Notes: generated from the letters alone by a model not told the origin. A stretch of DNA of 64,000 bases from Hyphomicrobiales bacterium (GCA_028285595.1 JANQOW010000053.1:2079-66078), one strand, 5' to 3'. Counted from the stretch's first letter, positions 24,308 through 45,279 are shown. A program made the numbers and translations.

Positions 24308-25471
24308 ATGACTGACGCGTTGGACAACACCATCACAATTCTTGAACGCCTGGTGAGCTTTGACAGTATCTCCGGTAAGCCGACCCACGGCATCGTTGGC
24401 TACATTCAGGACTATCTCTCAAGCCAGGGCGTTGAAAGCACACTGAGCTACGATGACGCCGGAGAGCGCGCCAACGTGTTCGCCACAATCGGCCCTGAAA
24501 CCGACGGCGGTGTTGTGTTGAACGGCCACACGGATGTGGTCCCCGTGGCGGGGCAGAACTGGAATTCAGACCCCTTCAAACTCACCCGCGACGGCACGAG
24601 GCTGCACGGTCGCGGTTCGGTGGATATGAAAGGGTTTTTGGCCTGTGTCCTGGGCGCCGTGCCCACCTTTCAGGCGGCAGGCCTGAACAAGCCGATCCAT
24701 ATGGCCTTCTCCTATGATGAGGAAACCGGTGGCTATGGAATGCCCGTTCTCCTGGAGCACATGGCCGGCAAGGCCTTCCGTCCGGCGGTGGTCATTGTGG
24801 GTGAACCTACGGAGATGAAGATCATTACCGGCCACAAGGGCGGCTATGAGATGCGCACCGAGATCACCGGCTTTGAGGTGCATTCATGCGATCCCTCTAA
24901 GGGGGTGAATGCCATCTCCGCGGCCATGAAGCTGATCTCGAAGATAGAGGAGATCGGCGCACGCTTCGCGGCAAACCCCTATCCCGGCTCACCCTACGAC
25001 CCACCCCACACCACCTTGAACGTAGGCATTATTGAAGGCGGCGCGGCCCGCAATGCCACGGCTGGATGGTGCAATTTCGATTGGGAGTTCCGCCCGATGC
25101 CCGGCGAAAACGGCGATGAAGTGGTGGACGAGTTGAAAGCTTACGCGGAAACAGAATTGCTGCCCCCCATGAAAGCGGTGAACGGGGCCGCTGCGATCAA
25201 CATCATCACCGAAAGCCCCGTCCCACCGCTCAACGACGCCAATGCGGCAGAAGCGGCTGCCTTTGTCAGCGAGGTCACGGGGCTCAACAGCCAGGGTGTT
25301 GTCTCCTTTGGCACCGATGCGGGCTATTTCAGCGGCGCCGGTTTCTCTACCGTGGTGTTTGGCCCCGGCAGCATCACGCGCGCGCATCAACCCAATGAGT
25401 ACATAGAGACGGGCGAGCTGGCTCAAGGTCTCGATTTCATGACAAAGATCGCACAGCGCCTCTCCCGGTGA
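24308..25471 (+). CDS. M20 family deacylase (acetylornithine deacetylase ArgE-like)
   Basis: Motifs LNGHTDVVP, HGRGSVDMKG, SYDEETGG and a C-terminal HQPNEY are typical of the ArgE/DapE M20 family. The substrate is not inferable. Confidence 0.8.
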   Translation: MTDALDNTITILERLVSFDSISGKPTHGIVGYIQDYLSSQGVESTLSYDDAGERANVFATIGPETDGGVVLNGHTDVVPVAGQNWNSDPFKLTRDGTRLHGRGSVDMKGFLACVLGAVPTFQAAGLNKPIHMAFSYDEETGGYGMPVLLEHMAGKAFRPAVVIVGEPTEMKIITGHKGGYEMRTEITGFEVHSCDPSKGVNAISAAMKLISKIEEIGARFAANPYPGSPYDPPHTTLNVGIIEGGAARNATAGWCNFDWEFRPMPGENGDEVVDELKAYAETELLPPMKAVNGAAAINIITESPVPPLNDANAAEAAAFVSEVTGLNSQGVVSFGTDAGYFSGAGFSTVVFGPGSITRAHQPNEYIETGELAQGLDFMTKIAQRLSR

Positions 25472-26677: not shown

Positions 26678-27892
26678 CTAGGCCACCGCGCGGGCGAGAG
26701 CACACTGCGACCACAGCTCGCTCAGAGCGTTCACCAAAGCATCAATGTCTTCGTCAGTATGCATGGGCGAAGGCGTAATGCGCAGCCGCTCGGTGCCCTT
26801 GGGCACGGTCGGATAGTTGATGGGCTGCACGTAGATCCCGGCATTTTCCAAGAGCCAGTCGGTGATCCACTTACACTTCACCGGATCGCCCACGATCACC
26901 GGAACAATGTGGCTCTCGTTGGCCATATAGGGAATGGCTTGCTCATCCAGGCGCCGGCGCAAGATGGCCACACGCTCACGCTGAGCCAGACGCTCGGTGT
27001 TTGAGGTTTTCAGATGGCGGATCGACGCCAATGCGCCCGCAGCCACAGAGGGCGGCAGCGCGGTGGTGAAAATGAAACCTGATGCAAACGAACGCACAAA
27101 ATCGCAGATGGTCTTGGACGCGGCAATGTAGCCCCCCATCACGCCGAACGCCTTGCCAAGCGTGCCTTCGATCACATCAAGGCGGTGCATCAAGCCTTCG
27201 CGTTCCGCAATCCCGCCGCCGCGCGGTCCGTAGAGGCCAACCGCATGCACTTCATCGAGATAGGTCATGGCTCCATGGGCTTCAGCCACATCGCAGAACT
27301 CGGCTATCGGCCCAATATCCCCATCCATGGAGTAGACGCTTTCAAAGGCGACGATTTTCGGGCGTTCAGGAGCGATTTCAGCAAGTTTGCGGTTCAGATC
27401 CTCAGGGTCGTTGTGCTTGAACACATGCTTTTCCGCACGCGAATGGCGGATGCCCTCAATCATCGAGGCATGGTTGCCTGCATCAGAGAGCACAACGCAA
27501 CCGGGCAGCCGCGAGGCGAGCGTTCCCAGGGAGGCCCAGTTGGATACGTAGCCTGAAGTGAATATCAGGGCGGCTTCCTTACCATGCAGGTCAGCCAATT
27601 CGGCCTCCAGCTCCACGTGGTAATGGTTGGTGCCGGAGATGTTACGGGTCCCACCCGCACCAGCACCGCAGCGCTCAATAGCCGTCTTCATGGCGCCGAT
27701 AACGTCCGGGTGTTGTCCCATGCCCAGATAGTCGTTGGAGCACCACACGGTCACTTCACAGGTGCCGCCGCCATCGTGTCGGGTGGCACGCGGAAAACTG
27801 CCGCGCACCCGCTCAAGATCAGCAAAAACCCTATAGTTTCCGTCATCCCGCAACTGATTCAGTTGGGCGGACATCTCTTTATCGTAGTTCAT
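26678..27892 (-). CDS. hemA: 5-aminolevulinate synthase
   Basis: 404 aa with the N-terminus ...[15 protein letters not shown] and the PLP-lysine motif GTLGKAFG, of the alpha-oxoamine synthase family. Confidence 0.95.
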
Positions 27893-28129: not shown

Positions 28130-29077
28130 ATGAAAAGATTTCTATCCATTGTTGGTGCTTGCGCACTCGGACTAGCCTTAAGCCATGCCGCATCAGCCCA
28201 GGACAACTGGTATCCTTCCAAGTTTGGCAAGGATGATCAGGCCGGGCGTTCGAATCTGATGACGCCGGACCGCACGAAAGCGGCCATGCAGTACATCAAG
28301 GAAGGCAAGGTCCTCTCGCTTGCCCGCACCTATTCTGCCAAGATGCCATTGTTCGGGCATCGGGTTTTTGCGGTGCGCGGAACGGGTGGGCTAGCCGGCG
28401 GACCGTTGGGCGACAACCAGGTCACGTGGATGGATGACACTCTGACTGCGGAAATCGGCCAGGTCGGCACGCAGTTTGATGGCCTTGGCCACATCGGCAT
28501 CGGCAACAAGTTCTACAACGGTATCGCTGCGTCGGACGTGTTCGGCACCACCGGCATGAAGAAGCTTGGCATGGAACACATCAAGCCGTTCTTCACCAAG
28601 GGTATCCTGATCGATATGGTCTTGTACAAAGGCGCGCCAATGGATGGCGGCCAGGAAATCCGCGTCGAGGACATTGAAGGCGCACTGAAAAAGCAGGGCA
28701 TGAGTGCAGACTCAATCGGCGAAGGCGATGTGGTCATGTTCCACACCGGCTGGGTGCGCCACTGGATCAAGGACAACGCGACCTACAACGGTGCTGTGCC
28801 GGGCGTCGGTATCCAAGCTGGACGCTGGCTTGCAGAGAAAGGTGTCGCGGTCGTAGGGTCAGATACGTGGCCGGTCGAAGTGGTTCCCAATCCGAACCCC
28901 AAGCAGGTCTTCCCTGTGCACCAGATCTTCATTACCCAAAACGGCATGTTCATTCATGAGAACGCGGCGACGGAGCGTCTCGCCGAAGCCAAGGTTTATG
29001 AGTTCGCCTACATCTTCAACCCGTTGGCGGTGGAAGGTGGTACCGGTTCTCCGGGCAACGCTCTGGCGGCCTACTGA
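28130..29077 (+). CDS. Secreted cyclase family protein (kynurenine formamidase-like fold)
   Basis: Signal peptide MKRFLSIVGACALGLALSHAASA after SD GGAGGAGG. The motifs GTQFDGLGH and GSDTW are typical of the putative cyclase family PF04199. ORF-track start 28061 is rejected. Confidence 0.7.
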   Translation: MKRFLSIVGACALGLALSHAASAQDNWYPSKFGKDDQAGRSNLMTPDRTKAAMQYIKEGKVLSLARTYSAKMPLFGHRVFAVRGTGGLAGGPLGDNQVTWMDDTLTAEIGQVGTQFDGLGHIGIGNKFYNGIAASDVFGTTGMKKLGMEHIKPFFTKGILIDMVLYKGAPMDGGQEIRVEDIEGALKKQGMSADSIGEGDVVMFHTGWVRHWIKDNATYNGAVPGVGIQAGRWLAEKGVAVVGSDTWPVEVVPNPNPKQVFPVHQIFITQNGMFIHENAATERLAEAKVYEFAYIFNPLAVEGGTGSPGNALAAY

Positions 29078-29094
29078 CACCGATCATAACACTT

Positions 29095-29124
29095 GTTCCG
29101 TCCGGCTTTCCGGCCGGGCGGAAC
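29095..29124. terminator. GC-rich hairpin between convergent genes
   Basis: GTTCCGTCCGGC / GCCGGGCGGAAC inverted repeat (one G-U pair). There is no clear T-tract on either side. Confidence 0.35.
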
Positions 29125-29144
29125 CCAGTTGCTCCCCGCGGCTA

Positions 29145-30305
29145 TCATTGAGCCAGCATGTCCACCAAGCGGGACATGAAAGCTTCTCCCTTGCGGAACT
29201 GATCGACAGTTATGAACTCATTGGGTTGATGCGCCTGGGCAATATCGCCTGGGCCGCACACCACAACAGAGTACCCGCGCTCCTGAAACTGGCCAGCCTC
29301 AGTGCCGTAGCTGACGACATTGGTGCCATTGTCACCAGTGAGCTGCCGGGCGAGCGCTTCTGCTGACCCGTCCTGCTCGGGAACCAGGCCGGGCACGTCG
29401 AACTCAGGCACTTTGTGAATGCCGGCTTCTGAGTTGATCGCTTTCATCTCAGCTTCCAGTTCAGCGATCTTTGCCTCAAACCGTCTGACCCAATCTTCGG
29501 CATGCTCTCCGGGCACGATCCGGAACTCAAGCTGGAAACGGCAATCCTTGGCGGTGATATTGTGCGCCGTGCCGCCAGAAATCTGGCCCACATGCAGCGT
29601 GGTGTAGGGCGGCACAAAATCAGCCGCCAGAGGGCTGGGCGCCTTGGCGGCGTTCTCGGCATTCACCTGATTGGCCCAGTCAATCAACTTGGCCGCCATC
29701 ATGATGGCGCTGACGCCAGTATGAACCAGCGAAGAATGCACCTCGAAGCCTCGAAAATGCATTTCATAACCTATGCTGCCCTTGTGCCCTGTGACCACCT
29801 TCATCATGGACGGCTCGCCCACAAGCACTGTATCGGCACGGGGCAAACCTCTAGACACCATATGGTCGATCATGGGTGGTGCGCCGGTACACCCGACCTC
29901 TTCATCATAGCTGAGGGCAATCTGAAGAGGCCGCTTGATATCGCGCTCCAAGGCGAGTGGCACGGCGGCAAGCGCCAGGGCATCAAACCCTTTCATGTCG
30001 CATGTGCCGCGCCCGTGAAGTTTGCCGTCACGCTCGATCACCTGGAACGGATCGGTGTCCCAATTCTGTCCTTCAATCGGTACGACATCTGTATGCCCGG
30101 ACAGAACCACGCCCCCATCCACCTCCGGACCCACATGAGCATAAAGGGCCGCCTTTGTCCCATCCGCGTTGGGGACGCGAATGGATGGGATGTCAAAGCT
30201 GTTAAGATAGGTCTCGACGAAATCGACCAGTTCCAGATTGGAGTCTGAGCTGACGGTAGGAAACGCAACCAGCTCGTCTAACAGTTCACGCGCAGTCAAA
30301 TTCAT
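29145..30305 (-). CDS. M20 family deacylase (second ArgE-like paralogue)
   Basis: Same motif set as 24308-25471 (LSGHTDVVP, HGRGTCDMKG, SYDEEVG, HQPNEF). Identity between the two is roughly 40-50% by eye. Confidence 0.8.
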   Translation of the reverse strand: MNLTARELLDELVAFPTVSSDSNLELVDFVETYLNSFDIPSIRVPNADGTKAALYAHVGPEVDGGVVLSGHTDVVPIEGQNWDTDPFQVIERDGKLHGRGTCDMKGFDALALAAVPLALERDIKRPLQIALSYDEEVGCTGAPPMIDHMVSRGLPRADTVLVGEPSMMKVVTGHKGSIGYEMHFRGFEVHSSLVHTGVSAIMMAAKLIDWANQVNAENAAKAPSPLAADFVPPYTTLHVGQISGGTAHNITAKDCRFQLEFRIVPGEHAEDWVRRFEAKIAELEAEMKAINSEAGIHKVPEFDVPGLVPEQDGSAEALARQLTGDNGTNVVSYGTEAGQFQERGYSVVVCGPGDIAQAHQPNEFITVDQFRKGEAFMSRLVDMLAQ

Positions 30306-30416
30306 GGATCATCTTCGTTGAAAGCCCATAGACTGCCTGTTGTAACTCCGATCACGCGATGGCTTCCAGTCTGAAAATCGTCGAGCCTTGATCTTTCCGT
30401 ATCGCGGCCTTCTCCG

Positions 30417-31580
30417 TTACTCCGGAACAATCTCACCCGGCAGAGAATTGACCGTCATGGTCTCGCCGGGCCGGAAGTGAACAACGGACCGGATCGATTT
30501 TCCAGCCTTTAGAAGATCAAAGGCGGTGTTAATCTGGCTATGGGTCATATTGTGCGTGATGTAGGGATCAACACTGAAGTCACCGCGCATCCACTCATCA
30601 ACCATTCCCGGCAACTCGCTGCGGCCCAGCACTCCGCCAAACGCAGTACCGCGCCAGACCCGCCCCGTGACCAGTTGGAACGGTCTTGTGGAGATTTCCT
30701 GGCCGGCGCCCGCAACGCCGATGACGGTGCACTCGCCCCAACCTTTGTGGCAAGCCTCAAGCGCGGAACGCATCAGCTCCACATTCCCGACCGCCTCGAA
30801 GGTGTAATCCAGACCGCCACCTGTCATCTCTACAAGCACATCCTGGATCGGCGCATCATAGTCCTTGGGATTGATGCACTCCGTGGCGCCCAATGCTTTT
30901 GCCAGCAGGAATTTTTCCGGGTTGATATCGATCCCGATAATCTTGGAGGCGCCATTCATAACGGCACCCTGAATGACCGCCATTCCCACAGCACCCAGCC
31001 CGAACACCGCCACGCTGGCACCGGCTTCCACCTTGGCCGTATTTCGCACCGCGCCCATTCCGGTGGGCACGGCGCAGCCCATAACCGATGCTTTGGCGAG
31101 CGGTGCTTCCTTGGAGATCTTGGCAACAGAGATTTCAGGCAGCACGGTGTATTCGCTGAACGTGCTGGTGCCCATATAGTGCAGGATCTGCTTGCCCTTG
31201 TAAGAGAACCGGGAGGTCCCATCCGGCATCACTCCCGCACCTTGGGTCTGCCGGATGGTTTGGCACAAATTGGTTTTGCCCGACTTAATGTAGGGGCAAT
31301 CCGGATCCTCCGGGACGTAAAGAGGGATCACATGGTCTCCGGGCACCACGGACGTGACGCCTTTGCCCACTTCCTCAACCACCCCGCATCCTTCATGGCC
31401 CAGGATGCAGGGGAACAGGCCCTCCGGGTCTTCCCCGGATAAAGTGAATACGTCGGTGTGGCAAAGACTGGTCGTTACAATTCGGACCAGAACTTCTCCC
31501 TCCTTGGGGCCTTCAAGATCGATTTCCTCGATCTCCAGTGGACGGTTCGGTTCCCAGGCAATTGCAGCACGCGTTTTCAT
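30417..31580 (-). CDS. Class III-type Zn-dependent alcohol dehydrogenase (S-(hydroxymethyl)glutathione dehydrogenase-like) with a degenerate structural-zinc lobe
   Basis: Collinear with FrmA/ADH5-type enzymes ([22 protein letters not shown]..., [26 protein letters not shown]). Catalytic Zn ligands are retained. The structural-Zn motif CGECxFCx7C is replaced by DPDCPYIx7C. Confidence 0.85.
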
Positions 31581-31609
31581 GGCGAATCTCTCCCATTTTC
31601 ATTGAATGT

Positions 31610-32257
31610 TTAGTGAAGGGTCTCCTGGCTCGCCGATCCTTCAGGATCAGCAACGGGATCGAGGACCGCCACCAGCCGCGTTTCGCCAGTGCCTTCAATC
31701 GGCGGCGAGCGGTGCAGGAGGTTGGCCCCCGACCCTTCGGGCCAGAGGGAACCGCGCAGGAGGATCGGGGATCCCGTGGGCACGGTGTAAATCCGCTGAG
31801 GCGTCCCGGTTTCGGTTGAGAAGCCGTACTGCGTGCCAGTCCCCCGATAGGTGCAGATCAGGCGCGCGGAAACAGCATCTTTATGGAACTTTCGGCAAGC
31901 ATTGCTCGCAACCACGTCCAGGCGCAGCAGCAAATGCTCAACACGCATCAACTCAGCGAAGATATGGGCCAGGGCGGCAATATCATCAATCAACAGAGCC
32001 CGCTCAGCGCAGTCCGGTGTTTTGCATATCTCGCAAATATGAGACGCCGCATCCCGCACGTTTTCAGGCCGCAGGATCAATCGGGCCGACGGCAGATGTT
32101 CCGGCGCCAGCGCATCGATCCAGCTCTGAAAGGTGCGCAACGGTTGGCGAGGCCAGATGGCGGCGGCGCAATCCACACTGTGGATCACCGACAAGCCCTC
32201 AGGCGACTGCGCGACGGCGACCGCAGCTTCGGTGTCCACCTGCCCAACGAGCGTCAT
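31610..32257 (-). CDS. DUF1826 domain-containing protein
   Basis: 215 aa. The segment [24 protein letters not shown] matches my recollection of the DUF1826 signature. ATGA overlap with the stop of the upstream GTPase. Confidence 0.55.
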
Positions 32258-33471
32258 GCGGCCGTCTCAACGCGGCGCCAAGCCGGGAAAGGGTCCGGCA
32301 AGTCTGGCAGATTGTCCATGCCGTATGCCTCATCCTCAGGCACCAGAGCTGCATCCAACCGCGCTTTCAAAGCCGGCCAGTCGATGCCGGCTCCGATGAA
32401 AACAATTTCCTGACGCCGGTCGCCCCACGGTTCCTGCCAGTGAGCGGCCATGTTGGCACGCGCACTGGGGTCATCGGGCCATCGGTCTTTGGGTACTGCG
32501 GCCCACCAGGGCCCTAACGGCTGGACAGAAGACAGAGCACCTGCGAGGGAGTATTCGAGCGCCCAGTCCGGCTGGGAGGAGATCCAGAAATGCCCCTTCG
32601 AGCGGATCACACCCGGCATCGGGCCGTTCACCAGAGCGTGAATCTTCTCTGGATGAAACGGTTGCTGTGCCCGGTAGACGTAACTGGTAACTCCATACTC
32701 CTCTGTCTCCGGCGTATGATCTGCAAAGCCATAGAGCTCTTTGACCCACATGGGGTACCCATGCGCTTTATCGAAGTCGAACAGCCCAGTATCCAGAACG
32801 CGGTCGGCCGGCACGTTCGAATGGTTGGTCTCTATGATCTCCGCATCGGCGTTCAAGCTCCGGATAATCTTGCGCGCGGCATCGACCTGATGAGGCTCGG
32901 CGTCGTCAACCTTGTTCAAGATCACCACATCGGCAAACTCAATCTGATCGGTAAGCAGGTGCACCAGCGTGCGCTCATCTTCCTCGCCCATGGTCTCGCC
33001 GCGATCCTGCAGGAAATCGTGGCTGGAAAAGTCCTTGAGCAGGTTCACCGCGTCTACCACCGTGACCATCGTGTCCAGGCGGGCAACATCCGACAGGCTC
33101 TCCCCGTTCTCATCGCGGAACTCAAAGGTCGCTGCAACGGGCAAGGGCTCTGAAATGCCTGTCGACTCGATTAGCAGGTAGTCAAAGCGCCCCTCGGCGG
33201 CCAGACGCCGAACCTCGGCCAAAAGGTCATCTCTCAGGGTGCAACAGATGCAGCCGTTGGACATCTCTACCAGGGTCTCATCGGTTCGGCTGAGTTCTGT
33301 GTCCGCCCGAACCAGATCGGCATCGATGTTCACTTCCGACATGTCGTTGACAATGACCGCAACGCGGCGCCCTTCCCGGTTATTGAGGACGCGGTTCAAA
33401 AGGGTCGTCTTACCCGCACCGAGAAATCCAGACAGAACGGTGACAGGAAGTCGTTTTTCTGACGTATTCAT
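32254..33471 (-). CDS. zigA: G3E-family (COG0523) metallochaperone GTPase, ZigA/YeiR-like
   Basis: P-loop [12 protein letters not shown], metal-binding [10 protein letters not shown] (CxCC), ESTGISEP and the NKVD motif. The long C-terminal CobW_C-type extension gives 405 aa. Confidence 0.85.
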
Positions 33472-33585
33472 TGAGGCCTCGTTGATGGATAATCTTGATT
33501 GCGCGCGTCAATTGGATCACGCATTGCATTTCCTGGCAGTTCCTCCCCGCCCGTCGGCCAGGGAGCCATGCGCTTCAATTCGGCG

Positions 33586-33609
33586 AAAATTGTTACGTTA
33601 TAACATCAC
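33586..33609 (-). promoter_or_regulatory. Candidate Zur box in the zigA promoter region
   Basis: AAAAT-TGTTACGTTATAACA-TCAC, a 7-1-7 dyad resembling the enterobacterial Zur consensus GAAATGTTATAWTATAACATTTC. It contains the perfect palindrome GTTATAAC. It lies about 120-135 nt upstream of the zigA ATG and overlaps a possible -10 (TATAAC on the minus strand). Confidence 0.5.
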
Positions 33610-33686
33610 TTTTCTCAAGTGAATTCTTGAGATAATCCCGCGCAAACCCATCATGTGGATCGGGACAACAGACACAAAGGGATAGC

Positions 33687-33717
33687 GCGCTGAACGAGGT
33701 GCTCGCCCGTTCAGCGC
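33687..33717 (-). terminator. Hairpin terminator downstream of the Fe-ADH gene
   Basis: Perfect 10-bp inverted repeat GCGCTGAACG / CGTTCAGCGC with an 11-nt loop. On the minus strand it is followed by GCTATCCCTTTGTGT. Confidence 0.55.
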
Positions 33718-33757
33718 TTGGAGACGATAGAATGTACGCCTTGCTTGGCTCTGGTGG

Positions 33758-34888
33758 TTAGAGCGCCTCGTGATAGAGCCGCTCATAGTCTTCGGCCGTC
33801 GCCTCACGCGGATTGGTGCGATGGGCGAGGTCAGCCAGCGCATGGTCAATGCATGGCGCAATCATGGCCTCTTCGACACCCATCTCCGACAGGCTCTTCG
33901 GCATACCGATCGACTGGTTCATGCGCTCAATCTCGGCGGCCAGATCTGCACCGGGTGCAAGGCCCATCGCCGTCCGCAGGCGTTCGTACTTCTCAGCCGG
34001 AGCGGACCCCTCGTTGAAGCGCAAAACGGACGGCAATAGCACGGCGTTTAGCGTGCCGTGATGCAGTCGCGGTTCAGAAAGACGGCCCAACGCATGGCTC
34101 ATCGCATGCACTGCGCCAAGTCCCTTCGGGAATGCCAGCGCACCTTCCGTGGAGGCCATCATCATTTCCCATCGCGCAGTGCGGTCAGAGCCTTCATGCA
34201 CAGCCCGCTCAAGATGCCGCCATCCACGCCACAGCCCATCAAGCGCGACACCGTCCGCCGGTGGGTTCACACTCGGCGAGAGATATCCTTCGATACAGTG
34301 GGTAATCGCATCCATGCCGGTGCCCGCTGTGATGGCGGAGGGAAGCCCAAGCGTCAGCTCAGGATCACATACGGCCGCGATCGGCACGAAACGTGGACCG
34401 CCAAAGGCAATCTTTCTTCCATCATTCAGCACAATAACAAAGCCGACGGATACCTCCGACCCGGTTCCCGATGTGGTTGGTACCGCCACAACAGGCGCAA
34501 TATCTTTCACATGGCGGTTGCCGCCGGCAAGCGGGTCGTATGTTGCCAGTTCACCGCCGCTCCCTGCCAGAAGCGCCACGCCCTTACCCAGATCCATGGC
34601 CGAACCGCCACCCAGACCCAGGACACCATCACAATCGGCGGCCTTGTAGACCTCAAGCGCTGCAACGGTTGCTTCCTCGGTCGGGTTCCCGGGGGTTTCG
34701 TCATAAACTGCCGCAGAGACAGCATCCCCCAGCACGTCTTTGACCGTATCGAGAATGCCGGCAGCCACAACGCCCTTATCGGTCGTGATCAGTGGTCGTT
34801 GCACCCCGGCACGCGAAAGCACCTTTGGCAGCATCTGCACGGCGCCAAAATCAAAATGTGTGGTTGTCAGATAAGTAAGTAACGCCAA
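33758..34888 (-). CDS. Iron-containing (group III) alcohol dehydrogenase
   Basis: 376 aa with the GGGS motif (LGLGGGSAMD) and metal-binding His cluster (AVHAMSHALG...HHG). Confidence 0.85.
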   Translation of the reverse strand: MALLTYLTTTHFDFGAVQMLPKVLSRAGVQRPLITTDKGVVAAGILDTVKDVLGDAVSAAVYDETPGNPTEEATVAALEVYKAADCDGVLGLGGGSAMDLGKGVALLAGSGGELATYDPLAGGNRHVKDIAPVVAVPTTSGTGSEVSVGFVIVLNDGRKIAFGGPRFVPIAAVCDPELTLGLPSAITAGTGMDAITHCIEGYLSPSVNPPADGVALDGLWRGWRHLERAVHEGSDRTARWEMMMASTEGALAFPKGLGAVHAMSHALGRLSEPRLHHGTLNAVLLPSVLRFNEGSAPAEKYERLRTAMGLAPGADLAAEIERMNQSIGMPKSLSEMGVEEAMIAPCIDHALADLAHRTNPREATAEDYERLYHEAL

Positions 34889-35117
34889 AGCCGCCTCCTA
34901 AAACCGTCGCACCATTGCGACACTCCGTGCTAACGCGCCACATCGCCGCCCAACGCACGGCGCCAAGTATGATCAAAGCAGCAGGACGTGGCAAGGTGTG
35001 GAACACTGCCGGGAGAGCCCGCAGCCTGCGCAGGATGTCGCATAGTTTTATCACAAGGGGTGGTGGCCGGAACGTCCGCAGCCTAAAGTGCACGGAAAAG
35101 AAGGAAGAGAGCCAGCT

Positions 35118-36356
35118 ATGTCAGAAAATCCCATCTTGTTCCGCAACGCAACACTCCTCGATGGCCGAGCGGACGAGGCCCTTTCAGATCATGATGTCCT
35201 GGTCGCGGACGGCAAGATCCAGGATGTCACCGCCTCGCGGCTCTCCACATCCGGTGCGGAGGTTGTGGATCTGGCAGGCAAGACATTGATGCCGGGCCTG
35301 ATTGACTGCCACGTCCATGTGATCGCGACCGATATCAACCTCACCGCAAACACCGAACTGCCCAACAGCCTGGTGTCTGTGCGTGCGGCAAAGCTCATGA
35401 ACGACATGTTGATGAGAGGCTTCACTACCGTGCGTGATCTGGGGGGCGCGGATATCGGCCTTAAGATGGCGGTTGAAGAAGGCAGCATCATCGGGCCGCG
35501 TCTGATCATTTGCGGCAAAGCCCTCTCTCAAACCGGCGGGCATACGGACTATCGCGGCCGTTTCCATCATCGCAGCATCGACTATTACAGCGATAGGGTT
35601 GGTGCTCTTGGCCGGGTTGTTGATGGTGTGGATGAGTTGCGCCGCGTTGCACGCGAAGAGATCATGGGCGGGGCTGAGTTCATCAAGCTCATGGCAAATG
35701 GAGGCGTTTCTTCGCCAACGGACCCAATCGCGTTCCTCGGATTCTCCCGCGATGAGATGAAGGCGGCGGTTGAGGAGGCCCATAACCATCAAACATATGT
35801 GGCCGCTCATCTCTACACCGATGAAGGCATCAGACGCGCTCTTGAGTGCGGGGTGATCTCCGTGGAGCACGGCAATCTCATTAAGCCTGACACTGCCAAG
35901 TTTCTGAAAGAGAGTGGCGCCTTCGTGGTGCCAACCAATATTGCTTATAACGCCCTGGCAAAGGTCGGCGCGGACCTTGGATTGCCGCCGGAATCGGTTG
36001 CCAAGATTGAAGATGTGCGCAGTGCCGGTCTCAAAGCCTTAGAAACGCTCGCAGATGCCGACGTAATGATGGCCTATGGCAGCGACCTTTTGGGCGGCAT
36101 GCATCCTTACCAGTCAGATGAGTTCATCCTGCGCTCTCGCTACTTGCCGGCAATGGAAGTTGTGCGGTCCGCGACGATCTACGCTGCAAAAGCCGTACGC
36201 GCTGAAGGTGAGATCGGGAGCATTGAGAAGGATGCCCACGCCGACTTGATCGTCGTGGACGGTGACCCACTCGCCGACCTCTCGCTGCTCACCGGTCAAG
36301 GAAAGCACCTACCGGTGATCATGAAAGGTGGAGCATTTGTGAAGCGCGAACTTTAG
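35118..36356 (+). CDS. Amidohydrolase family protein (metal-dependent hydrolase)
   Basis: Metal-binding motif PGLIDCHVHV, later His/Asp ligands (VAAHLY, VEHG, YGSD). ORF-track start 35088 is GTG; ATG 35118 is preferred. Confidence 0.8.
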   Translation: MSENPILFRNATLLDGRADEALSDHDVLVADGKIQDVTASRLSTSGAEVVDLAGKTLMPGLIDCHVHVIATDINLTANTELPNSLVSVRAAKLMNDMLMRGFTTVRDLGGADIGLKMAVEEGSIIGPRLIICGKALSQTGGHTDYRGRFHHRSIDYYSDRVGALGRVVDGVDELRRVAREEIMGGAEFIKLMANGGVSSPTDPIAFLGFSRDEMKAAVEEAHNHQTYVAAHLYTDEGIRRALECGVISVEHGNLIKPDTAKFLKESGAFVVPTNIAYNALAKVGADLGLPPESVAKIEDVRSAGLKALETLADADVMMAYGSDLLGGMHPYQSDEFILRSRYLPAMEVVRSATIYAAKAVRAEGEIGSIEKDAHADLIVVDGDPLADLSLLTGQGKHLPVIMKGGAFVKREL

Positions 36357-41460: not shown

Positions 41461-42749
41461 TTAGATCTCCCAGCATTGCTCCACACATCGCGGGCGCGAA
41501 AAACAACATCCGCAAAAGGCAAAAACCAGGGACTTCCCCGATGCCACCATCGATTGGGAAACCCTGTCTTAGTGAACGCCGTCTCTCCGTCGCGGTCCCC
41601 GGCCATCAACAGGGCTGCTTTGTGGCCCAGATAGGGTGCCATGGCATTGCCGCTGCCGGAGTAACCCATGGCATGCCAAACGCCATCTTCTTTGCCGACA
41701 TGGGGCAGGAAGTCGAAGGTGAACCCGGTTCTGCCGCGCCAACTATGAGAGAATCCGACGCCTTTCAGTTCGGGAAAGATCTGCGTCATCAACCCTCGCA
41801 GCTCAGATTGTGCAATAGACTCAGGGGCATTGAACAGAGCCGCACGCCCACCGAACACAAGCCGTGTCCCATCTGGTGATGCCCGGTAATAGCAATGTCG
41901 TTCCCGGCTCTCCGCCACCATGCGCCCTCCTGGCAGGAGATCTTTGATCCGGTTCTCGCCGAGAGGCTCGGTGACAACAATGAAGCTCGGGATCGGAACA
42001 ATGCGCCGCTTCAGTGTCGAAAGGTGAGATGGGGTATAGCCGTTTGTGGCCACCAACACCTCGCCGGCGCGGACCCTTCCGCGGGGCGTATCGATGACAA
42101 CTCCCGCATCTGCCTGCTGCACACTTGTGACCGGCGTGTGCCCTTGGACCAGTGCGCCGGCGCGCTGGGCAGCGTTCAGAATACCTTGCACCCATTTGGC
42201 CGGATTCAGTCCACCATGCCTTGGAAAAACGATGCCGCCCGAATAGAGATCGCTGTTGACCTCGTCGCGCTGACGGGATTTCGGCACCATCTCCGCTTCA
42301 AGCGGGATCAACGATTGTAGGCGCTCAAGCCCCCGTGCCGAACTCTCATATTCCGATGGATGCCAGAGGCCGCGAAATCTTCCGGTCTCCGCGAAATCAC
42401 AGTCAATCTCTTCTTCGGCGATGAGGTCCTTGACGAAGTTGGTGGCGTTCAGATGTGCTTCTGTCAGCAGATCAAGGGCCGTCGCCTTACCGAACCGTGC
42501 CTCCATGTCGTCGATAGACATGCGATGCCCCCCACCGATCATCCCGCCATTGCGGGAACTTGCACCGATGCCAGGCGCTTCGGCGTCGAGAACCAGAACC
42601 GCTTTACCTTTCTTTGCCAATGTCCGCGCAGCGGAGAGGCCCGTCAGGCCGGCCCCAACGATCACAAAGTCAATGTCCTGCGGCAACGGGGCCTCTTTGG
42701 GCGACGTTGGCTCCCCTGCATCGTCCCACCAGTAGGGTTCAAATTTCAT
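41457..42749 (-). CDS. FAD-dependent oxidoreductase (DAO family; amine/amino-acid oxidase or dehydrogenase type)
   Basis: 430 aa with the dinucleotide fold DFVIVGAGLTGLSAARTLAKKGKAVLVLD. ATGA overlap with the downstream gene. Start MKFEPYWWDD at 42749 is verified in frame. Confidence 0.85.
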   Translation of the reverse strand: MKFEPYWWDDAGEPTSPKEAPLPQDIDFVIVGAGLTGLSAARTLAKKGKAVLVLDAEAPGIGASSRNGGMIGGGHRMSIDDMEARFGKATALDLLTEAHLNATNFVKDLIAEEEIDCDFAETGRFRGLWHPSEYESSARGLERLQSLIPLEAEMVPKSRQRDEVNSDLYSGGIVFPRHGGLNPAKWVQGILNAAQRAGALVQGHTPVTSVQQADAGVVIDTPRGRVRAGEVLVATNGYTPSHLSTLKRRIVPIPSFIVVTEPLGENRIKDLLPGGRMVAESRERHCYYRASPDGTRLVFGGRAALFNAPESIAQSELRGLMTQIFPELKGVGFSHSWRGRTGFTFDFLPHVGKEDGVWHAMGYSGSGNAMAPYLGHKAALLMAGDRDGETAFTKTGFPNRWWHRGSPWFLPFADVVFRARDVWSNAGRSK

Positions 42750-44262
42750 CGTTGCCGATTTCACGTGAGCGGCGCTCCACAAATGCGTTCAAAGCTTCCG
42801 CGCGATCTGCTTCCAGGTTTGGTGCTTCGTAGGCCGCCAACATTTCCTTCCACTTGGCGTTGGCGCGGATAGCGGTATCGGGCGAACCATCAGCCTCCCA
42901 GAACTCATAGGGTCTCCAGTCTGACAGAATGGGAGCGTGAAAGGCCGTCTGATACCGGGCCATTGTGTGCGAAGACCCCAGGAAATGCCCGCCGGGGCCA
43001 ACTTCTTCAATGGCGGCAATCGCTTCCTCTGCATCGCTGAAGTCAATACGGCCACTGAGAGCCCCCATCATCCCGATCATTTCCGCATCAATGATCGTCT
43101 TTTCAAAACCTGTGGTAAGGCCGGCCTCCATCCAACCGTGCGCATGATAGACGCAATGCGCCCCGCACAGCACACCAGCCCACAAGGAGAACATTGTTTC
43201 ATATGCGCCCTGGGCGTCCGGGGCATTGGAGCTGGAGCCCAGCATGAGGCGTTGGGGAAGCTTATAGCGGCGGGCCATCTGACCGTTCGACAATGTACCG
43301 GTGACGGTTTCCGGCACACCCATGGCCGGGGCGCCGGACTTCATGTCGATCGGGGTGGTCAACACACCATAAAAGCAAGGAGCACCGGCGCGCACCATCT
43401 GAAGAAAGGCAATGACACCAATGGCCTCGGCATTACATTGGATGAGACTTCCAGATAGCGTTATCGGCGACATCGCTCCGGCAAAGGCGACGGGCGAAAT
43501 GACGTTCGCCTGGCCGTTCGCAGCCATTTCCATCGCACCTTCCAGCAGCGGTTCATCTACAACCAAGGGGGAGTTCACGGAGATACTGGCATGCAGTCGG
43601 GGCTCGGCTGCGAGTTCATCACGGGTTATGCCGTGGGCAAGTGCGGTCATCTCCAGACTATCGCGCACACGCGTTTCGCCGATCGCATAGACACGGGTCA
43701 CCTTGTCGGACAGCGTCTGCCACGAGCGCATGCTTGTCAGATGACGGGTGTTGACGGGAGTGTCGATCGGCTCGACCGGATGGCCGGAATGGAAGGCACA
43801 CGTTGGGATCATTTGGTTGAGTTTGACCAGATCCTCGAAGTCCTTTTGCGTTCCGGGGCGGCGGCCGCGATCCATGTCCAGCACGTTCGGCGCAGAAGAC
43901 GCTGAACCGAAGTGAATATCGCCGCACCCAAAGTGGAGATCGTGAGCACGATTGCGCGCCCGCATGGTGAATTCTGACGGCGCCAAAGCCAGGAAGTGTT
44001 CCACCACTTCTGGCGGAAAACGGGCGATGCCCGTCTCCCGATCAACCGCGCAGCCATTGGCCTCCAGGATAGGCCAGCTCCTCTCCGCCATAAACTTCAG
44101 CCCAATGCGCTCAAGAACCTGAAGCGAGAGTGCGTGAACTCTTTCTTCTTCTTCTGCGGTAAGCAAGTCGATCGGCGCATAGGGCCGCTGAATGGGCTTG
44201 AACGTCGGCGCCTCCGCAGGGGCTACCTCTTTGGTTCTGCGCCCTTGCCGTCGGGCAGACAT
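42739..44262 (-). CDS. MttB (trimethylamine methyltransferase) superfamily protein, non-pyrrolysine type (copy 1)
   Basis: About 507-aa uninterrupted ORF with an Arg/Lys-rich N-terminus, then LTAEEEERVHALSLQVLERIGLKF, and the C-terminus GPGGHFLGSSHTMARY. ATG 44262 is preceded by GGAGG. Confidence 0.85.
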   Translation of the reverse strand: MSARRQGRRTKEVAPAEAPTFKPIQRPYAPIDLLTAEEEERVHALSLQVLERIGLKFMAERSWPILEANGCAVDRETGIARFPPEVVEHFLALAPSEFTMRARNRAHDLHFGCGDIHFGSASSAPNVLDMDRGRRPGTQKDFEDLVKLNQMIPTCAFHSGHPVEPIDTPVNTRHLTSMRSWQTLSDKVTRVYAIGETRVRDSLEMTALAHGITRDELAAEPRLHASISVNSPLVVDEPLLEGAMEMAANGQANVISPVAFAGAMSPITLSGSLIQCNAEAIGVIAFLQMVRAGAPCFYGVLTTPIDMKSGAPAMGVPETVTGTLSNGQMARRYKLPQRLMLGSSSNAPDAQGAYETMFSLWAGVLCGAHCVYHAHGWMEAGLTTGFEKTIIDAEMIGMMGALSGRIDFSDAEEAIAAIEEVGPGGHFLGSSHTMARYQTAFHAPILSDWRPYEFWEADGSPDTAIRANAKWKEMLAAYEAPNLEADRAEALNAFVERRSREIGNDEI

Positions 44263-44325
44263 GAGAGACCTCCAAGCATGTAATCGCTGAACACTAGGCC
44301 TTTCAGTCCATGCTATCACCTGATA

Positions 44326-45279
44326 TTGTATAATTTCAGATATAACAGTTTCGCATACCTTGCTGTGAGATTTGCCGACTTACAAACGTTTATCGATGTC
44401 ATAGAGCATGGCGGCATGACCCAGGCGGCCGCCATTAACGGCGTCTCACAACCAGGGATCAGCAGGTCAATACGAGATCTTGAGACGCGTATGCGCGCGA
44501 CGTTGTTGCGCCGCACCGGGCGCGGCGTGGAGTTGACCCCTGCTGGTATGGAGTTTCTCGCCTTTGCAAAATCCAGCCTAAGCGCGCTCGAAGACGCCAA
44601 ATCAAGGATAATGGAGGTTTCCGGCAACATTCCCGAGAGGTTGCACATTGCCATTCCGGACCGGCTTGGGTCTGTGGTGTACCCGGTCCTCTATCGCCAA
44701 TTCATGCTGGAGCTTCCCGAAGTTGCGGTTGCCGCCACAGAGACCCTAACGGCGGATATGATTGACGGCATTAACGCAGGGCGCGTGGACTTGTCAGTCT
44801 CCTATCTGCCGACGATCCCTGGGGCCTACGGTGGCGAACCCGCCTTTCGCGAGAGCCTCTATTTGGTGGAGAGAAAGACCAAAACGGTCAGCAAGGACGT
44901 CACCGTCTCCCTTGCCGATGTCGCTAAGCAACCTTTTCTTCTGAACCACCAGGGCAGCGCCTACCATCGCCTCATAGATGCCGCGTTCTCAGCAGCCGGG
45001 CACAAGCTGATCGTCGCCAGAGAGTTTGAAACAGCAGAGAGCTTGCTTGCATTTGCATGCGAAGGTGAAGGCGTGACGATCCTTCCTTACAGCAACTTTC
45101 GCACGGAGGCGCAGCGCGGCGACGTTATAGGGCGGCTCATAACTGACCCGGGGATTGAGCGAAATGTCTACGTTCACGCCGGGCGACACTTGGACAACCG
45201 CACCGCAAACCTCGCCCGCGGCATCATTCTGCGCTGTCTCAATGAGATCGCCGAAAGCGTCCGCTGGTCGCCCATGTAA
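44326..45279 (+). CDS. LysR family transcriptional regulator (divergent from the MttB operon)
   Basis: HTH LQTFIDVIEHGGMTQAAAINGVSQPGISRSIRDLE plus a LysR substrate-binding domain. The start is uncertain: 44326 is TTG, and an in-frame GTG at 44365 gives a more typical N-terminus. Confidence 0.85.
   Translation: MYNFRYNSFAYLAVRFADLQTFIDVIEHGGMTQAAAINGVSQPGISRSIRDLETRMRATLLRRTGRGVELTPAGMEFLAFAKSSLSALEDAKSRIMEVSGNIPERLHIAIPDRLGSVVYPVLYRQFMLELPEVAVAATETLTADMIDGINAGRVDLSVSYLPTIPGAYGGEPAFRESLYLVERKTKTVSKDVTVSLADVAKQPFLLNHQGSAYHRLIDAAFSAAGHKLIVAREFETAESLLAFACEGEGVTILPYSNFRTEAQRGDVIGRLITDPGIERNVYVHAGRHLDNRTANLARGIILRCLNEIAESVRWSPM

What the first reader, a model, noticed from the sequence alone, without database searches (positions are those of the whole stretch)
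30417..33609. Candidate Zur-controlled unit: Zur box, zigA-like GTPase, DUF1826, then a Zn-dependent ADH on the same strand
Seen in sequence: a Zur-like dyad (TGTTACG-T-TATAACA with A/T flanks, 33586-33609) sits in the 286-bp region upstream of a COG0523 GTPase carrying the CxCC motif. The region is insulated from the upstream Fe-ADH gene by a perfect 10-bp-stem hairpin (33687-33717). The GTPase stop overlaps the DUF1826 start (ATGA at 32254-32257). The ADH gene follows only 29 nt after DUF1826, with its own SD (GGGAGAG). Established knowledge: COG0523 proteins (ZigA, YeiR, ZNG1) are Zur-regulated zinc metallochaperones, and their clients are mostly unknown in bacteria. Inference: the co-directional zinc enzyme immediately downstream may be a co-transcribed client, or a low-zinc isoform belonging to the same zinc-limitation response.
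Basis: partly seen in the sequence, partly recalled or inferred. Interest (0 to 1): 0.6.

Follow-up and report, generated by a model that had tools for sequence, protein, structure and literature searches.

The report
Zur-controlled operon with low-zinc formaldehyde dehydrogenase
A zinc-starvation switch (Zur operator) heads an operon for a zinc chaperone, a protein of unknown function and a formaldehyde-detoxifying enzyme that has lost its structural zinc site, which is probably a zinc-saving back-up enzyme and a practical test case for what the chaperone serves.

Summary
A strong Zur operator lies at 33591-33610 (25.8 bits; best of 30 shuffles 16.9). It is the only strong site in the 64 kb and sits one mismatch from an EMSA-validated Paracoccus denitrificans Zur site. 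It abuts a -35-like TTGAGA upstream of zigA, DUF1826 and a class III ADH, which have a 4-nt overlap and a 29-nt gap with no terminator.

The main new result concerns the ADH. It keeps its catalytic zinc ligands but has lost two of the four structural-zinc cysteines (D-C-I-C instead of C-C-C-C). This variant forms a tight alphaproteobacterial clade: all 120 best homologues and 79 of 80 genome loci carry it. DUF1826 lies directly upstream in 53 of 72 loci. A Zur box heads the co-directional gene string in 44 of 80 loci, often as zur-znuCBA-zigA-DUF1826-ADH. All 120 canonical homologues examined are C-C-C-C, and seven canonical loci have no box and no zinc genes.

Best reading: a Zur-repressed, reduced-zinc isoform of glutathione-dependent formaldehyde dehydrogenase, possibly also a ZigA client. 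DUF1826 is predicted to have an Fe(II)/2-oxoglutarate oxygenase fold. Everything here is computational. Coexistence with a canonical paralogue was not tested.

The parts
33687..33717 (-). Hairpin after the Fe-ADH gene (perfect 10-bp stem, extendable to 12). It is the probable terminator or insulator separating the upstream gene from the Zur-controlled unit.
   Evidence: Sequence. RNA fold of 33670-33760: -30 kcal/mol, z = -2.9, 1 of 200 shuffles as stable. The T-tract is weak, so the simple terminator scan does not call it.
33613..33618 (-). -35-like hexamer TTGAGA, immediately 5' of the Zur box
   Evidence: Promoter scan: TTGAGA, 18-nt spacer, AACAAT. The same TTGAnA-abutting-the-box arrangement recurs in many related loci, for example L005, L015, L016, L032, L033 and L049.
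33591..33610 (.). Zur operator: 20-bp palindrome AGTGATGTTA|TAACGTAACA (minus-strand reading), with consensus TGTTATGTTATAACATAACA. It covers the spacer and the -10-like AACAAT (33589-33594). Its centre lies 129 nt upstream of the zigA ATG.
   Evidence: PWM score 25.8 bits; shuffles reach at most 16.9; it is the only strong site in the window. It lies 1-2 mismatches from EMSA-validated P. denitrificans Zur sites. The same PWM recovers the exact validated aztA and pden1338 site sequences in P. versutus.
32254..33471 (-). zigA: COG0523 subfamily-1 zinc metallochaperone GTPase (405 aa, CxCC motif, CobW_C domain)
   Evidence: Pfam cobW 188 bits and CobW_C 77 bits. NCBIfam NF038288 ZigA equivalog 600.1 bits against a cut-off of 600.
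31610..32257 (-). DUF1826 protein (215 aa). Its start overlaps the zigA stop (ATGA). It is predicted to have an Fe(II)/2-oxoglutarate oxygenase-like double-stranded beta-helix fold with a conserved H125-x-D127...H182 triad.
   Evidence: Pfam PF08856 172.7 bits. Conserved columns. AF2 model pLDDT 87.7. The Foldseek PDB top 50 hits are nearly all 2OG oxygenases, probability about 1.0, TM 0.3-0.5.
31588..31594 (-). Shine-Dalgarno GGGAGAG of the ADH gene, inside the 29-nt DUF1826-ADH spacer
   Evidence: Sequence. No promoter-like or terminator-like site lies in or near the spacer. The equivalent spacer is 13-33 nt (mode 25) in all but four of the 58 loci where DUF1826 precedes the ADH.
30417..31580 (-). 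Variant class III ADH / S-(hydroxymethyl)glutathione dehydrogenase (387 aa). Catalytic zinc ligands C40, H62 and C169 are kept. The structural-zinc positions read D92, C95, I98, C106 instead of Cys4. The clade also carries specific prolines P93 and P96 and a conserved C-terminal tail, TMxVNxLPGxIVP.
   Evidence: TIGR02818 635.8 bits against a cut-off of 543.95. Alignment to E. coli FrmA and human ADH5. Clade signature.
29145..30305 (-). ArgE-like M20 deacylase, 111 nt downstream on the same strand. It could be read through but is not a conserved member of the unit.
   Evidence: NCBIfam PRK07522 481.7 bits. No terminator-like structure in the gap. No homologue in any of the 80 related loci.

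Best explanation
This is a Zur-repressed operon, zigA-DUF1826-adhC*. When zinc is sufficient, Zn-loaded Zur sits on the 20-bp palindrome (33591-33610) that covers the spacer and -10 region of the promoter and blocks transcription. When zinc is scarce, Zur leaves and the three genes are transcribed together. The last gene encodes a reduced-zinc isoform of glutathione-dependent formaldehyde dehydrogenase (also a GSNO reductase). It keeps the catalytic zinc site but cannot form the canonical Cys4 structural site, so it should need about one zinc per subunit instead of two. Two clade-specific prolines and a conserved C-terminal tail probably stabilise the zinc-less lobe. This lets the cell keep detoxifying formaldehyde while lowering its zinc demand. 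ZigA may supply the one zinc that is still needed. What is shown: gene identities, the altered ligands, the operator match, and the conservation of linkage and operators. What is inferred: Zur binding here, co-transcription, zinc stoichiometry, the stabilising role of the prolines and tail, and metallation by ZigA.
For: Operator. The site scores 25.8 bits, against at most 16.9 in shuffles, and is unique in the 64 kb. It lies 1-2 mismatches from EMSA-validated P. denitrificans Zur sites, whose COG0523 operon pden1338-1340 is induced 9-13-fold in low zinc. The -35 TTGAGA abuts the box, an arrangement repeated across loci.

Operon. There is a 4-nt overlap, then a 29-nt gap, with no terminator or promoter between the genes.

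ADH. The TIGR02818 equivalog cut-off is met. The structural site reads D-C-I-C where human ADH5 has C97/C100/C103/C111. All 120 best homologues and 79 of 80 genome loci carry the same change, and one locus has D-D-I-C. All 120 canonical relatives examined are C-C-C-C.

Linkage. DUF1826 lies directly upstream in 53 of 72 loci. ZigA and/or DUF1826 lie upstream in 49 of 60. A Zur box of at least 18 bits heads the co-directional string in 44 of 80 loci, and 22 more are cut by contig ends. A recurrent layout is [box]-zur-znuC-znuB-znuA-zigA-DUF1826-ADH.

Independent architectures also place a box upstream of the variant ADH. Gluconobacter has box-folE-hisI-zigA-ADH-carbonate dehydratase. Skermanella has box-ADH-zigA-DUF1826. 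P. versutus and Sagittula have a box about 40-50 nt upstream of a stand-alone ADH inside zinc islands.

Controls. Seven canonical loci show LysR-ADH, in two of them followed by fghA or an esterase gene. None has a box of 16 bits or more, ZigA or DUF1826.
Against: There is no experimental evidence for this locus. The catalytic zinc is retained, so the enzyme is not zinc-free. D92, C95 and C106 remain conserved, so a residual three-ligand metal site or a disulfide cannot be excluded; in archaeal ADHs a carboxylate can replace the first Cys of the structural site (my own knowledge, not tested). I could not show that genomes carrying the variant also carry a canonical four-Cys paralogue; only genus-level overlap was seen for Leisingera and Hoeflea. 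Eleven of 80 loci show no box upstream. The PWM was trained on these same loci, although it agrees with the independent EMSA motif. The AF2 model of the ADH has low confidence (pLDDT below 50) in the lobe at residues 95-106, which is uninformative about its fold.
Confidence: 0.7

Rival explanations
1. The ADH is mainly a ZigA client. Under zinc limitation ZigA, perhaps with DUF1826 as an adaptor, uses GTP to load zinc into the catalytic site of the co-expressed ADH, and the operon is a chaperone-client module. This is compatible with the zinc-sparing reading and may be true in addition to it.
For: The ADH keeps all its catalytic zinc ligands, so it still needs zinc when zinc is scarce. It is operon-linked to ZigA in 32 of 60 loci and in different gene orders: ZigA-DUF1826-ADH, ZigA-ADH and ADH-ZigA-DUF1826. 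The Gluconobacter operon groups ZigA with four zinc enzymes: FolE, HisI, the ADH and a carbonate dehydratase.
Against: The variant ADH often occurs with a Zur box but without an adjacent ZigA: 17 DUF1826-ADH loci, 11 ADH-alone loci, plus P. versutus and Sagittula. Co-regulation alone explains the linkage. No interaction data exist.
Confidence: 0.35
2. The ADH is there because of DUF1826, not because of zinc. On this reading DUF1826 is an Fe(II)/2-oxoglutarate-dependent oxidative demethylase whose by-product is formaldehyde, and the tightly coupled glutathione-dependent formaldehyde dehydrogenase removes it.
For: The DUF1826 model resembles 2OG oxygenases, including the demethylases FTO and ALKBH2, and has a conserved HxD...H triad and an invariant R194. 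DUF1826 is the commonest immediate upstream neighbour of the ADH (53 of 72 loci), at a near-constant 25-nt spacing.
Against: The fold match is generic (TM 0.3-0.5), and the best hits are hydroxylases and oxidases, not demethylases. There is no sequence-level match to any 2OG family. In Pseudomonas and Francisella, DUF1826 is described as part of the Zur/zinc response, and no ADH is mentioned with it. The ADH occurs with its own Zur box and no adjacent DUF1826. This idea does not explain the loss of the zinc ligands.
Confidence: 0.15
3. The altered lobe is not about saving zinc. Either the remaining Asp-Cys-Cys still binds a metal, or the loss of the oxidation-labile Cys4 site adapts a GSNO reductase / formaldehyde dehydrogenase to oxidative or nitrosative stress. 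On this reading Zur control is incidental co-regulation.
For: D92, C95 and C106 stay conserved in the variant clade. Carboxylate-containing structural zinc sites exist in other medium-chain dehydrogenases (my own knowledge).
Against: Ile at the third ligand position is invariant and cannot ligate a metal. The clade's consistent placement behind Zur boxes in several independent architectures points to zinc supply as the selective context.
Confidence: 0.15
4. The Zur box controls only zigA (and DUF1826), and the ADH is an unrelated neighbour with its own promoter.
For: No transcript data exist. A 29-nt gap does not strictly prove co-transcription.
Against: Conserved tight spacing in 53 loci, no promoter-like or terminator-like site at the junction, and Zur boxes directly upstream of the ADH where it stands alone.
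Confidence: 0.05

Closest known systems
Zur-regulated zigA-DUF1826 pairs (P. aeruginosa PA5535/PA5534; the P. denitrificans pden1338-1340 operon; Haas et al. 2009, Fig. 4)
   Same: The pairing is the same: a COG0523 subfamily-1 GTPase followed by DUF1826, behind a Zur box. The operator is nearly the same sequence as the EMSA-validated P. denitrificans sites, and that operon is induced 9-13-fold in low zinc.
   Different: Those papers do not report a class III ADH with these pairs. Assigning pden1339 to DUF1826 rests on synteny with P. versutus pTAV3 and was not read directly.
Zinc-sparing 'C-minus' paralogues of the Zur regulon (ribosomal proteins L31B/L36B/S14B, DksA2)
   Same: Zinc-ligand cysteines are lost relative to the standard form, and the gene is placed under a Zur operator.
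   Different: Only the structural site is degraded (two of four Cys). The catalytic zinc remains, so this is a reduced-quota form, not a zinc-free one. Coexistence with a four-Cys paralogue in the same genome was not shown.
Canonical class III ADH / glutathione-dependent formaldehyde dehydrogenase (E. coli FrmA, human ADH5, Paracoccus FlhA)
   Same: About 63-67% identical. It meets the TIGR02818 equivalog cut-off and keeps the catalytic ligands, the Arg115 equivalent and the coenzyme-domain motifs.
   Different: The lobe reads D-C-I-C instead of C-C-C-C, with prolines flanking it and an 18-residue conserved C-terminal tail. The genomic context is zinc homeostasis, not LysR/FrmR with fghA.
ADH switching or repression in zinc-starved bacteria (the A. 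baumannii Zn-type to Fe-type ADH swap; S. aureus ZinS sRNA repressing adh)
   Same: The logic is the same: zinc-dependent ADHs are large zinc consumers and are targeted by zinc-sparing responses.
   Different: Those cases replace or shut off the zinc enzyme. Here a same-family isoform with a trimmed zinc requirement is induced.
Chaperone-client pairs of COG0523 proteins (B. subtilis ZagA-FolE, eukaryotic ZNG1-METAP1, A. baumannii MigC-MurD)
   Same: A ZigA-type GTPase is co-expressed with a zinc enzyme that must be metallated when zinc is scarce.
   Different: No interaction or metallation evidence exists here. The candidate client is encoded in the same operon, which is unusual and convenient for testing.

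Membership tests
Alphaproteobacterial Zur operator / Zur regulon | Palindromic operator matching the experimentally defined motif | tested here: met
   GTTACGTTATAACAT against the EMSA-validated GTTACGATATAACAT and GTAACGTAATAACAT. PWM 25.8 bits; shuffles at most 16.9.
Alphaproteobacterial Zur operator / Zur regulon | Operator overlaps the promoter of the regulated operon | tested here: met
   -35 TTGAGA abuts the box, and the -10-like AACAAT lies inside or at the edge of it. The same layout occurs in many related loci. These are consensus matches only, with no transcription start mapped.
Alphaproteobacterial Zur operator / Zur regulon | Sites conserved upstream of orthologous operons in other genomes, and upstream of known Zur targets (znuA, zur, aztA) | tested here: met
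   44 of 80 loci have a box of at least 18 bits heading the gene string. Boxes lie upstream of zur-znuCBA and aztA. Seven control loci have none.
Alphaproteobacterial Zur operator / Zur regulon | Zur binding and zinc-repressed transcription | not testable with these tools
   Needs EMSA or footprinting, and RNA measurements with and without TPEN and in a zur mutant.
ZigA / COG0523 subfamily 1 | G3E GTPase domain with Walker A and a CxCC metal motif, a CobW_C domain, and the equivalog score | tested here: met
   GAGKTT and GCICC in the sequence. PF02492 and PF07683. NF038288 600.1 bits against a cut-off of 600, which only just passes.
ZigA / COG0523 subfamily 1 | Zinc binding and zinc-modulated GTPase activity | not testable with these tools
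   Biochemistry is required.
DUF1826 (PF08856) | Match to the family model above the gathering score | tested here: met
   172.7 bits against 22, covering 2-202 of 202 model positions.
Fe(II)/2-oxoglutarate oxygenase superfamily (for DUF1826) | Double-stranded beta-helix fold with an HxD/E...H metal triad and a basic residue for 2OG | tested here: inconclusive
   AF2 model pLDDT 87.7. The Foldseek top hits are nearly all 2OG oxygenases, but TM is only 0.3-0.5. H125, D127, H182 and R194 are conserved.
Class III ADH / S-(hydroxymethyl)glutathione dehydrogenase (TIGR02818) | Equivalog-level sequence match and catalytic zinc ligands (Cys, His, Cys) | tested here: met
   635.8 bits against 543.95. 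C40, H62 and C169 are invariant.
Class III ADH / S-(hydroxymethyl)glutathione dehydrogenase (TIGR02818) | Cys4 structural zinc site (human C97, C100, C103, C111) | tested here: not met
   D92, C95, I98, C106 in the window protein. The same holds in 120 of 120 close homologues and 79 of 80 loci. All 120 canonical relatives examined have four Cys.
Zinc-sparing paralogues of the Zur regulon | Loss of zinc ligands together with a Zur operator | tested here: met
   See the rows above. The loss is partial and affects the structural site only.
Zinc-sparing paralogues of the Zur regulon | A zinc-replete paralogue of the same enzyme in the same genome | not tested
   The window holds only one class III ADH. 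Only genus-level overlap was seen, for Leisingera and Hoeflea.

The most novel reading that the evidence does not exclude
zigA-DUF1826-adhC* is a dedicated three-part module, not just three co-regulated genes. DUF1826 would be an Fe(II)/2-oxoglutarate oxygenase active during zinc starvation, for example an oxidative demethylase or hydroxylase acting on a zinc-related substrate or protein and releasing formaldehyde. The structurally zinc-less ADH would be both the sink for that formaldehyde and an operon-encoded client that ZigA metallates at its one remaining zinc site. That would give DUF1826 its first function and bacterial ZigA its first operon-encoded client.
Probability: 0.15. Interest if true: 0.8.

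Novelty: new variant of a known kind. Interest (0 to 1): 0.58.

Why it matters
The clients of bacterial COG0523/ZigA chaperones are largely unknown. Here a conserved, easily assayed NAD-linked enzyme sits in the same Zur-controlled operon as ZigA in dozens of alphaproteobacterial genomes, so chaperone-client transfer can be tested directly.

The ADH itself extends the zinc-sparing 'cysteine-minus paralogue' principle. That principle is known for ribosomal proteins and DksA. This case concerns a central detoxification enzyme whose Cys4 structural site was conserved in every canonical homologue examined here. The clade looks like a natural experiment in stabilising the ADH lobe without zinc, through two prolines and a C-terminal tail.

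Many hosts are marine Rhodobacterales and Hyphomicrobiales (including Roseibium, Roseovarius, Tritonibacter and Sagittula). By my own knowledge, not tested here, such bacteria oxidise methylated compounds to formaldehyde in zinc-poor seawater, so the variant may matter ecologically.

The predicted 2OG-oxygenase fold of DUF1826 gives a starting point for a protein that is part of Zur regulons across Proteobacteria but has no known function.

Tried and rejected
1. The axis is 5 bp away, and the motif's 5-bp periodicity explains the apparent dyad.
2. I looked for a riboswitch or other RNA element in the roughly 110-nt leader and across 29000-35200. Rfam gave nothing relevant; the only match (E = 0.33) is a chance hit inside DUF1826.
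3. No intrinsic terminator or separate promoter was found between DUF1826 and the ADH, or between the ADH and the ArgE-like gene.
4. The ArgE-like gene, the cyclase gene and the Fe-ADH gene were considered as members of the unit. No homologue of the ArgE-like or cyclase proteins was detected in the 80 related loci. Fe-ADH homologues recur only loosely.
5. I tried to show that variant and canonical ADHs coexist in one genome by searching with a canonical Roseivivax sequence. The hits came from a widely transferred clade and gave only genus-level overlap, so the question stays open.
6. I tried to identify the source organism through the identical DUF1826 protein. This returned only a 1.7-kb read-assembly contig.
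7. My first GC3-based gene caller mis-called the Fe-ADH strand and was replaced by a codon-usage model. The second caller still misses some DUF1826 genes, so the linkage counts use tblastn instead.
9. The AF2 model of the ADH gave low confidence exactly in the lobe (residues 95-106) and in 288-314. It therefore says nothing reliable about how the zinc-less lobe folds. The C-terminal tail is modelled with pLDDT of about 80-88.
10. Literature searches found no paper describing a Zur-linked class III ADH that lacks structural-zinc ligands. The library does not cover all journals.
Full report
1. What is in the sequence

On the minus strand the region holds, in order:
- an Fe-type ADH gene (33758-34888; NCBIfam 4-hydroxybutyrate dehydrogenase);
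- a 286-bp intergenic region;
- a COG0523 GTPase gene (32254-33471);
- a DUF1826 gene (31610-32257);
- a class III ADH gene (30417-31580);
- an ArgE-like M20 deacylase gene (29145-30305).

The GTPase has Walker A GAGKTT, the GCICC (CxCC) motif and a CobW_C domain. It just reaches the NCBIfam ZigA equivalog cut-off (600.1 against 600). The zigA stop overlaps the DUF1826 start (ATGA, 32254-32257). The ADH starts 29 nt after DUF1826, behind GGGAGAG (31588-31594). A perfect 10-bp stem (33687-33717) follows the Fe-ADH gene. The folded region is more stable than all but 1 of 200 shuffles (z = -2.9).

2. The operator

Related loci (section 4) share a 20-bp palindrome, TGTTATGTTA|TAACATAACA. I built a symmetrised weight matrix (PWM) from them.
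- The window site 33591-33610 scores 25.8 bits.
- The best score in 30 shuffles of the 64-kb window was 16.9 bits.
- Nothing else in the window exceeds 11 bits.

The motif has a 5-bp internal period, which creates the secondary symmetry.

On the plus strand the site reads GTTACGTTATAACAT. Neupane et al. (PMC5387054, Table 7) defined the P. denitrificans Zur motif and showed zinc-dependent Zur binding by EMSA. Their sites include GTTACGATATAACAT (znuA), GTAACGTAATAACAT (the COG0523 gene pden1338) and GTAATGTAATAACAT (aztA). The window site therefore differs by one or two bases from validated operators. My matrix also recovers the identical pden1338-type and aztA-type sequences in the P. versutus plasmid pTAV3, upstream of the ZigA-like GTPase gene (followed by DUF1826) and of aztA.

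A -35-like TTGAGA (33613-33618) abuts the box, and a -10-like AACAAT lies at its distal edge. The same '-35 TTGAnA then box' layout recurs in many related loci. This fits repression by promoter occlusion. Rfam finds no RNA element in the leader.

3. The ADH is not a standard class III enzyme

It passes the equivalog model for S-(hydroxymethyl)glutathione dehydrogenase (635.8 against 543.95 bits). It keeps the catalytic zinc ligands C40, H62 and C169 and the Arg115 equivalent.

Aligned to E. coli FrmA and to solved human ADH5 structures, the four structural-zinc cysteines (human C97, C100, C103, C111) read D92, C95, I98, C106. This is not an accident of one sequence.
- All 120 best database homologues (82-93% identical, nearly all 386-388 residues) carry PEDP[ND]CP[YF]I.
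- 79 of 80 genome loci have D-C-I-C, and one has D-D-I-C.
- All 120 homologues of a canonical alphaproteobacterial enzyme have C-C-C-C.

In the plasmid collection, identity to the window protein drops from 80-85% (10 records) straight to 69% or less (more than 1,700 records), so the variant is a discrete clade.

Positions that separate the two clades include G-to-P and K-to-P on either side of the surviving Cys95. There is also a conserved 18-residue C-terminal tail, TMxVNxLPGxIVP, which canonical enzymes lack. I infer that these compensate for the missing zinc tether. This is not shown. The AF2 model is confident overall (pLDDT 81) but falls below 50 in residues 95-106, so it does not settle the lobe's conformation.

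4. Comparative genomics links the variant ADH to the zinc-limitation response

One scan of 185,579 species genomes returned 80 loci with the variant, at 91-96% identity. They come from Rhodobacterales, Hyphomicrobiales and Rhodospirillales, and many are MAGs.
- DUF1826 lies directly upstream in 53 of 72 loci that have enough upstream sequence. The spacer is almost always 13-33 nt, with a mode of 25.
- Of 60 loci with at least 2.2 kb upstream, 29 are zigA-DUF1826-ADH, 17 DUF1826-ADH, 3 zigA-ADH and 11 ADH alone.
- A Zur box of at least 18 bits heads the co-directional gene string containing the ADH in 44 of 80 loci. In 22 more the contig ends first. Eleven have none.
- The 0.93 Mb of loci hold 63 boxes of at least 20 bits.

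A frequent layout is [box]-zur-znuC-znuB-znuA-zigA-DUF1826-ADH. The Fur-family and ZnuA identities were confirmed with Pfam.

Annotated plasmids give independent arrangements.
- Gluconobacter albidus: box (28.7 bits)-folE-hisI-zigA-ADH-carbonate dehydratase, next to a divergent DUF1826 and a Fur-family gene.
- Skermanella: box (28.8 bits)-ADH-zigA-DUF1826.
- P. versutus and Sagittula stellata: a box (23.6 and 18.5 bits) about 40-50 nt upstream of a stand-alone ADH. These sit inside islands with znu/azt transporters, DUF1007 and DUF1826, plus ZigA-like GTPase genes in P. versutus.

The feature shared by most of these arrangements is the Zur box, not any one neighbour.

As controls I used seven loci of canonical four-Cys enzymes (about 74 kb). 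They have a LysR gene, and two of them have fghA or an esterase gene after the ADH. They have no box of 16 bits or more and no ZigA, DUF1826 or Znu genes.

5. What is already known

The zigA-DUF1826 pair under Zur is established knowledge.
- P. aeruginosa PA5535/PA5534.
- Haas et al. 2009, Fig. 4.
- Zur-regulated DUF1826 in Francisella.
- The P. denitrificans operon pden1338-1340, induced 9-13-fold in zinc-depleted medium. By synteny with P. versutus it is zigA-DUF1826-DUF6525, which is an inference.

Zinc-dependent ADHs are also known targets of zinc-sparing responses. S. aureus ZinS represses adh, and A. baumannii swaps a Zn-type for an Fe-type ADH.

I found no paper describing a Zur-linked class III ADH that lacks structural-zinc ligands. 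Haas et al. do not mention alcohol dehydrogenase in their main text. The searchable library is incomplete, so this is absence of evidence only.

6. DUF1826

An alignment of 120 homologues shows invariant or near-invariant H125, D127, H182 and R194, plus Cys30, 75, 121 and 135. The AF2 model is confident (pLDDT 87.7). Its best PDB matches are almost exclusively Fe(II)/2-oxoglutarate oxygenases: auxin dioxygenase, BesD-like hydroxylase, HrmJ, PolD, Ofd2, prolyl hydroxylase, FTO and ALKBH2. Probability is about 1.0 but TM is only 0.3-0.5.

Sequence profiles find no relative in Pfam or the PDB. The HxD...H pattern fits the facial triad, so a 2OG-oxygenase-like function is a reasonable but unproven lead. 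Some members of that superfamily release formaldehyde. A functional tie to the adjacent formaldehyde dehydrogenase is therefore conceivable. The stand-alone Zur-boxed ADHs argue that it is not the main reason for the linkage.

7. Mechanism and verdict

The best-supported model is a Zur-repressed operon whose last gene is a reduced-zinc isoform of glutathione-dependent formaldehyde dehydrogenase.
- Shown: the gene identities, the ligand substitutions and their clade-wide conservation, the operator match to a validated motif, and the cross-genome conservation of operators and linkage against negative controls.
- Inferred: Zur binding at this site, co-transcription, one-zinc stoichiometry, compensation by the prolines and tail, and any role of ZigA in loading the catalytic zinc.
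- Not tested: whether the same genomes keep a canonical paralogue.

The zigA-DUF1826-Zur core is already known. The structurally zinc-less class III ADH as a regular member of alphaproteobacterial Zur-box clusters is a new variant of a known kind, and a practical entry point to the open question of what ZigA serves.

Noticed in passing
window 24308-25471 (+) and 29145-30305 (-): There appear to be two ArgE-like M20 (zinc-dependent) deacylase genes within 6 kb; only the second was confirmed with Pfam and NCBIfam, and the first was judged from its N-terminal sequence. The second lies 111 nt downstream of the variant ADH on the same strand, with no terminator-like structure between them. It could therefore be read through from the Zur-controlled promoter, but it has no counterpart in the 80 related loci.
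   Followed up: partly
window 33758-34888 (-); loci L025, L038, L042 (52-55% identical), and L014, L019, L029, L073: An Fe-type ADH gene (4-hydroxybutyrate dehydrogenase model) sits just upstream of the Zur unit. Fe-ADH family genes recur next to the variant ADH, or divergently from Zur boxes, in several related loci. This recalls the Zn-type to Fe-type ADH swap reported in A. baumannii. It could still be coincidence.
   Followed up: partly
window 31610-32257 (-): DUF1826, which has no assigned function, is predicted to have an Fe(II)/2-oxoglutarate oxygenase-like fold with conserved H125-x-D127...H182, R194 and four conserved cysteines. One paper's description of it as related to succinylglutamate desuccinylase is not supported by the model.
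   Followed up: yes
window 30417-30473 (-), the C-terminal 18 residues of the ADH: A conserved tail, TMxVNxLPGxIVP, is present in all variant-clade enzymes and absent from canonical class III ADHs. AF2 models it with pLDDT of about 80-88. Its role is unknown; it may stabilise the lobe or act as a docking site.
   Followed up: partly
related loci, for example L010, L025, L040, L069, L073 (family f7); L036, L062, L063, L068 (family f11); L016, L018, L034 (DUF1007 + NicO-like): Other recurrent companions appear in the Zur-box clusters. One is a 125-aa DsrE-like protein between the box and zigA or DUF1826. Another is a 71-aa protein with no Pfam match that sits directly upstream of a second, divergent COG0523 paralogue in several loci. 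Also present are DUF1007 plus a NicO-like membrane protein, Tat-signal MBL-fold and cyclase-family proteins, a 161-aa family with no Pfam match, and an extra FolE (type IA) copy that keeps its zinc ligands.
   Followed up: partly
L001-L080: The variant ADH is 91-96% identical across genomes assigned to different orders, whereas the adjacent ZigA is 69-86% and DUF1826 46-70% identical. The variant is also found on conjugative plasmids of Gluconobacter and Sagittula. This suggests very strong constraint on the ADH, horizontal spread, or both.
   Followed up: no
window 45607-45626 and 44319-44343: There is a weak unrelated near-palindrome, CGTTATCTCATCGCATAACG (10 bits on the Zur matrix), and an AT-rich patch between the divergent genes at 42739-44319 and 44326-45279. 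These are probably operators of other regulators, not Zur sites.
   Followed up: no
window 26678-27892 (-); L005 12159-13373: A PLP-dependent class I/II aminotransferase-family gene, which I take to be a 5-aminolevulinate synthase-like gene (my reading; Pfam identifies only Aminotran_1_2), lies about 2.5 kb downstream of the ADH in the window. An 82%-identical homologue lies about 4 kb downstream of the ADH in L005 (an Aestuariivirgaceae MAG). This hints at local synteny and at the window's phylogenetic neighbourhood.
   Followed up: no
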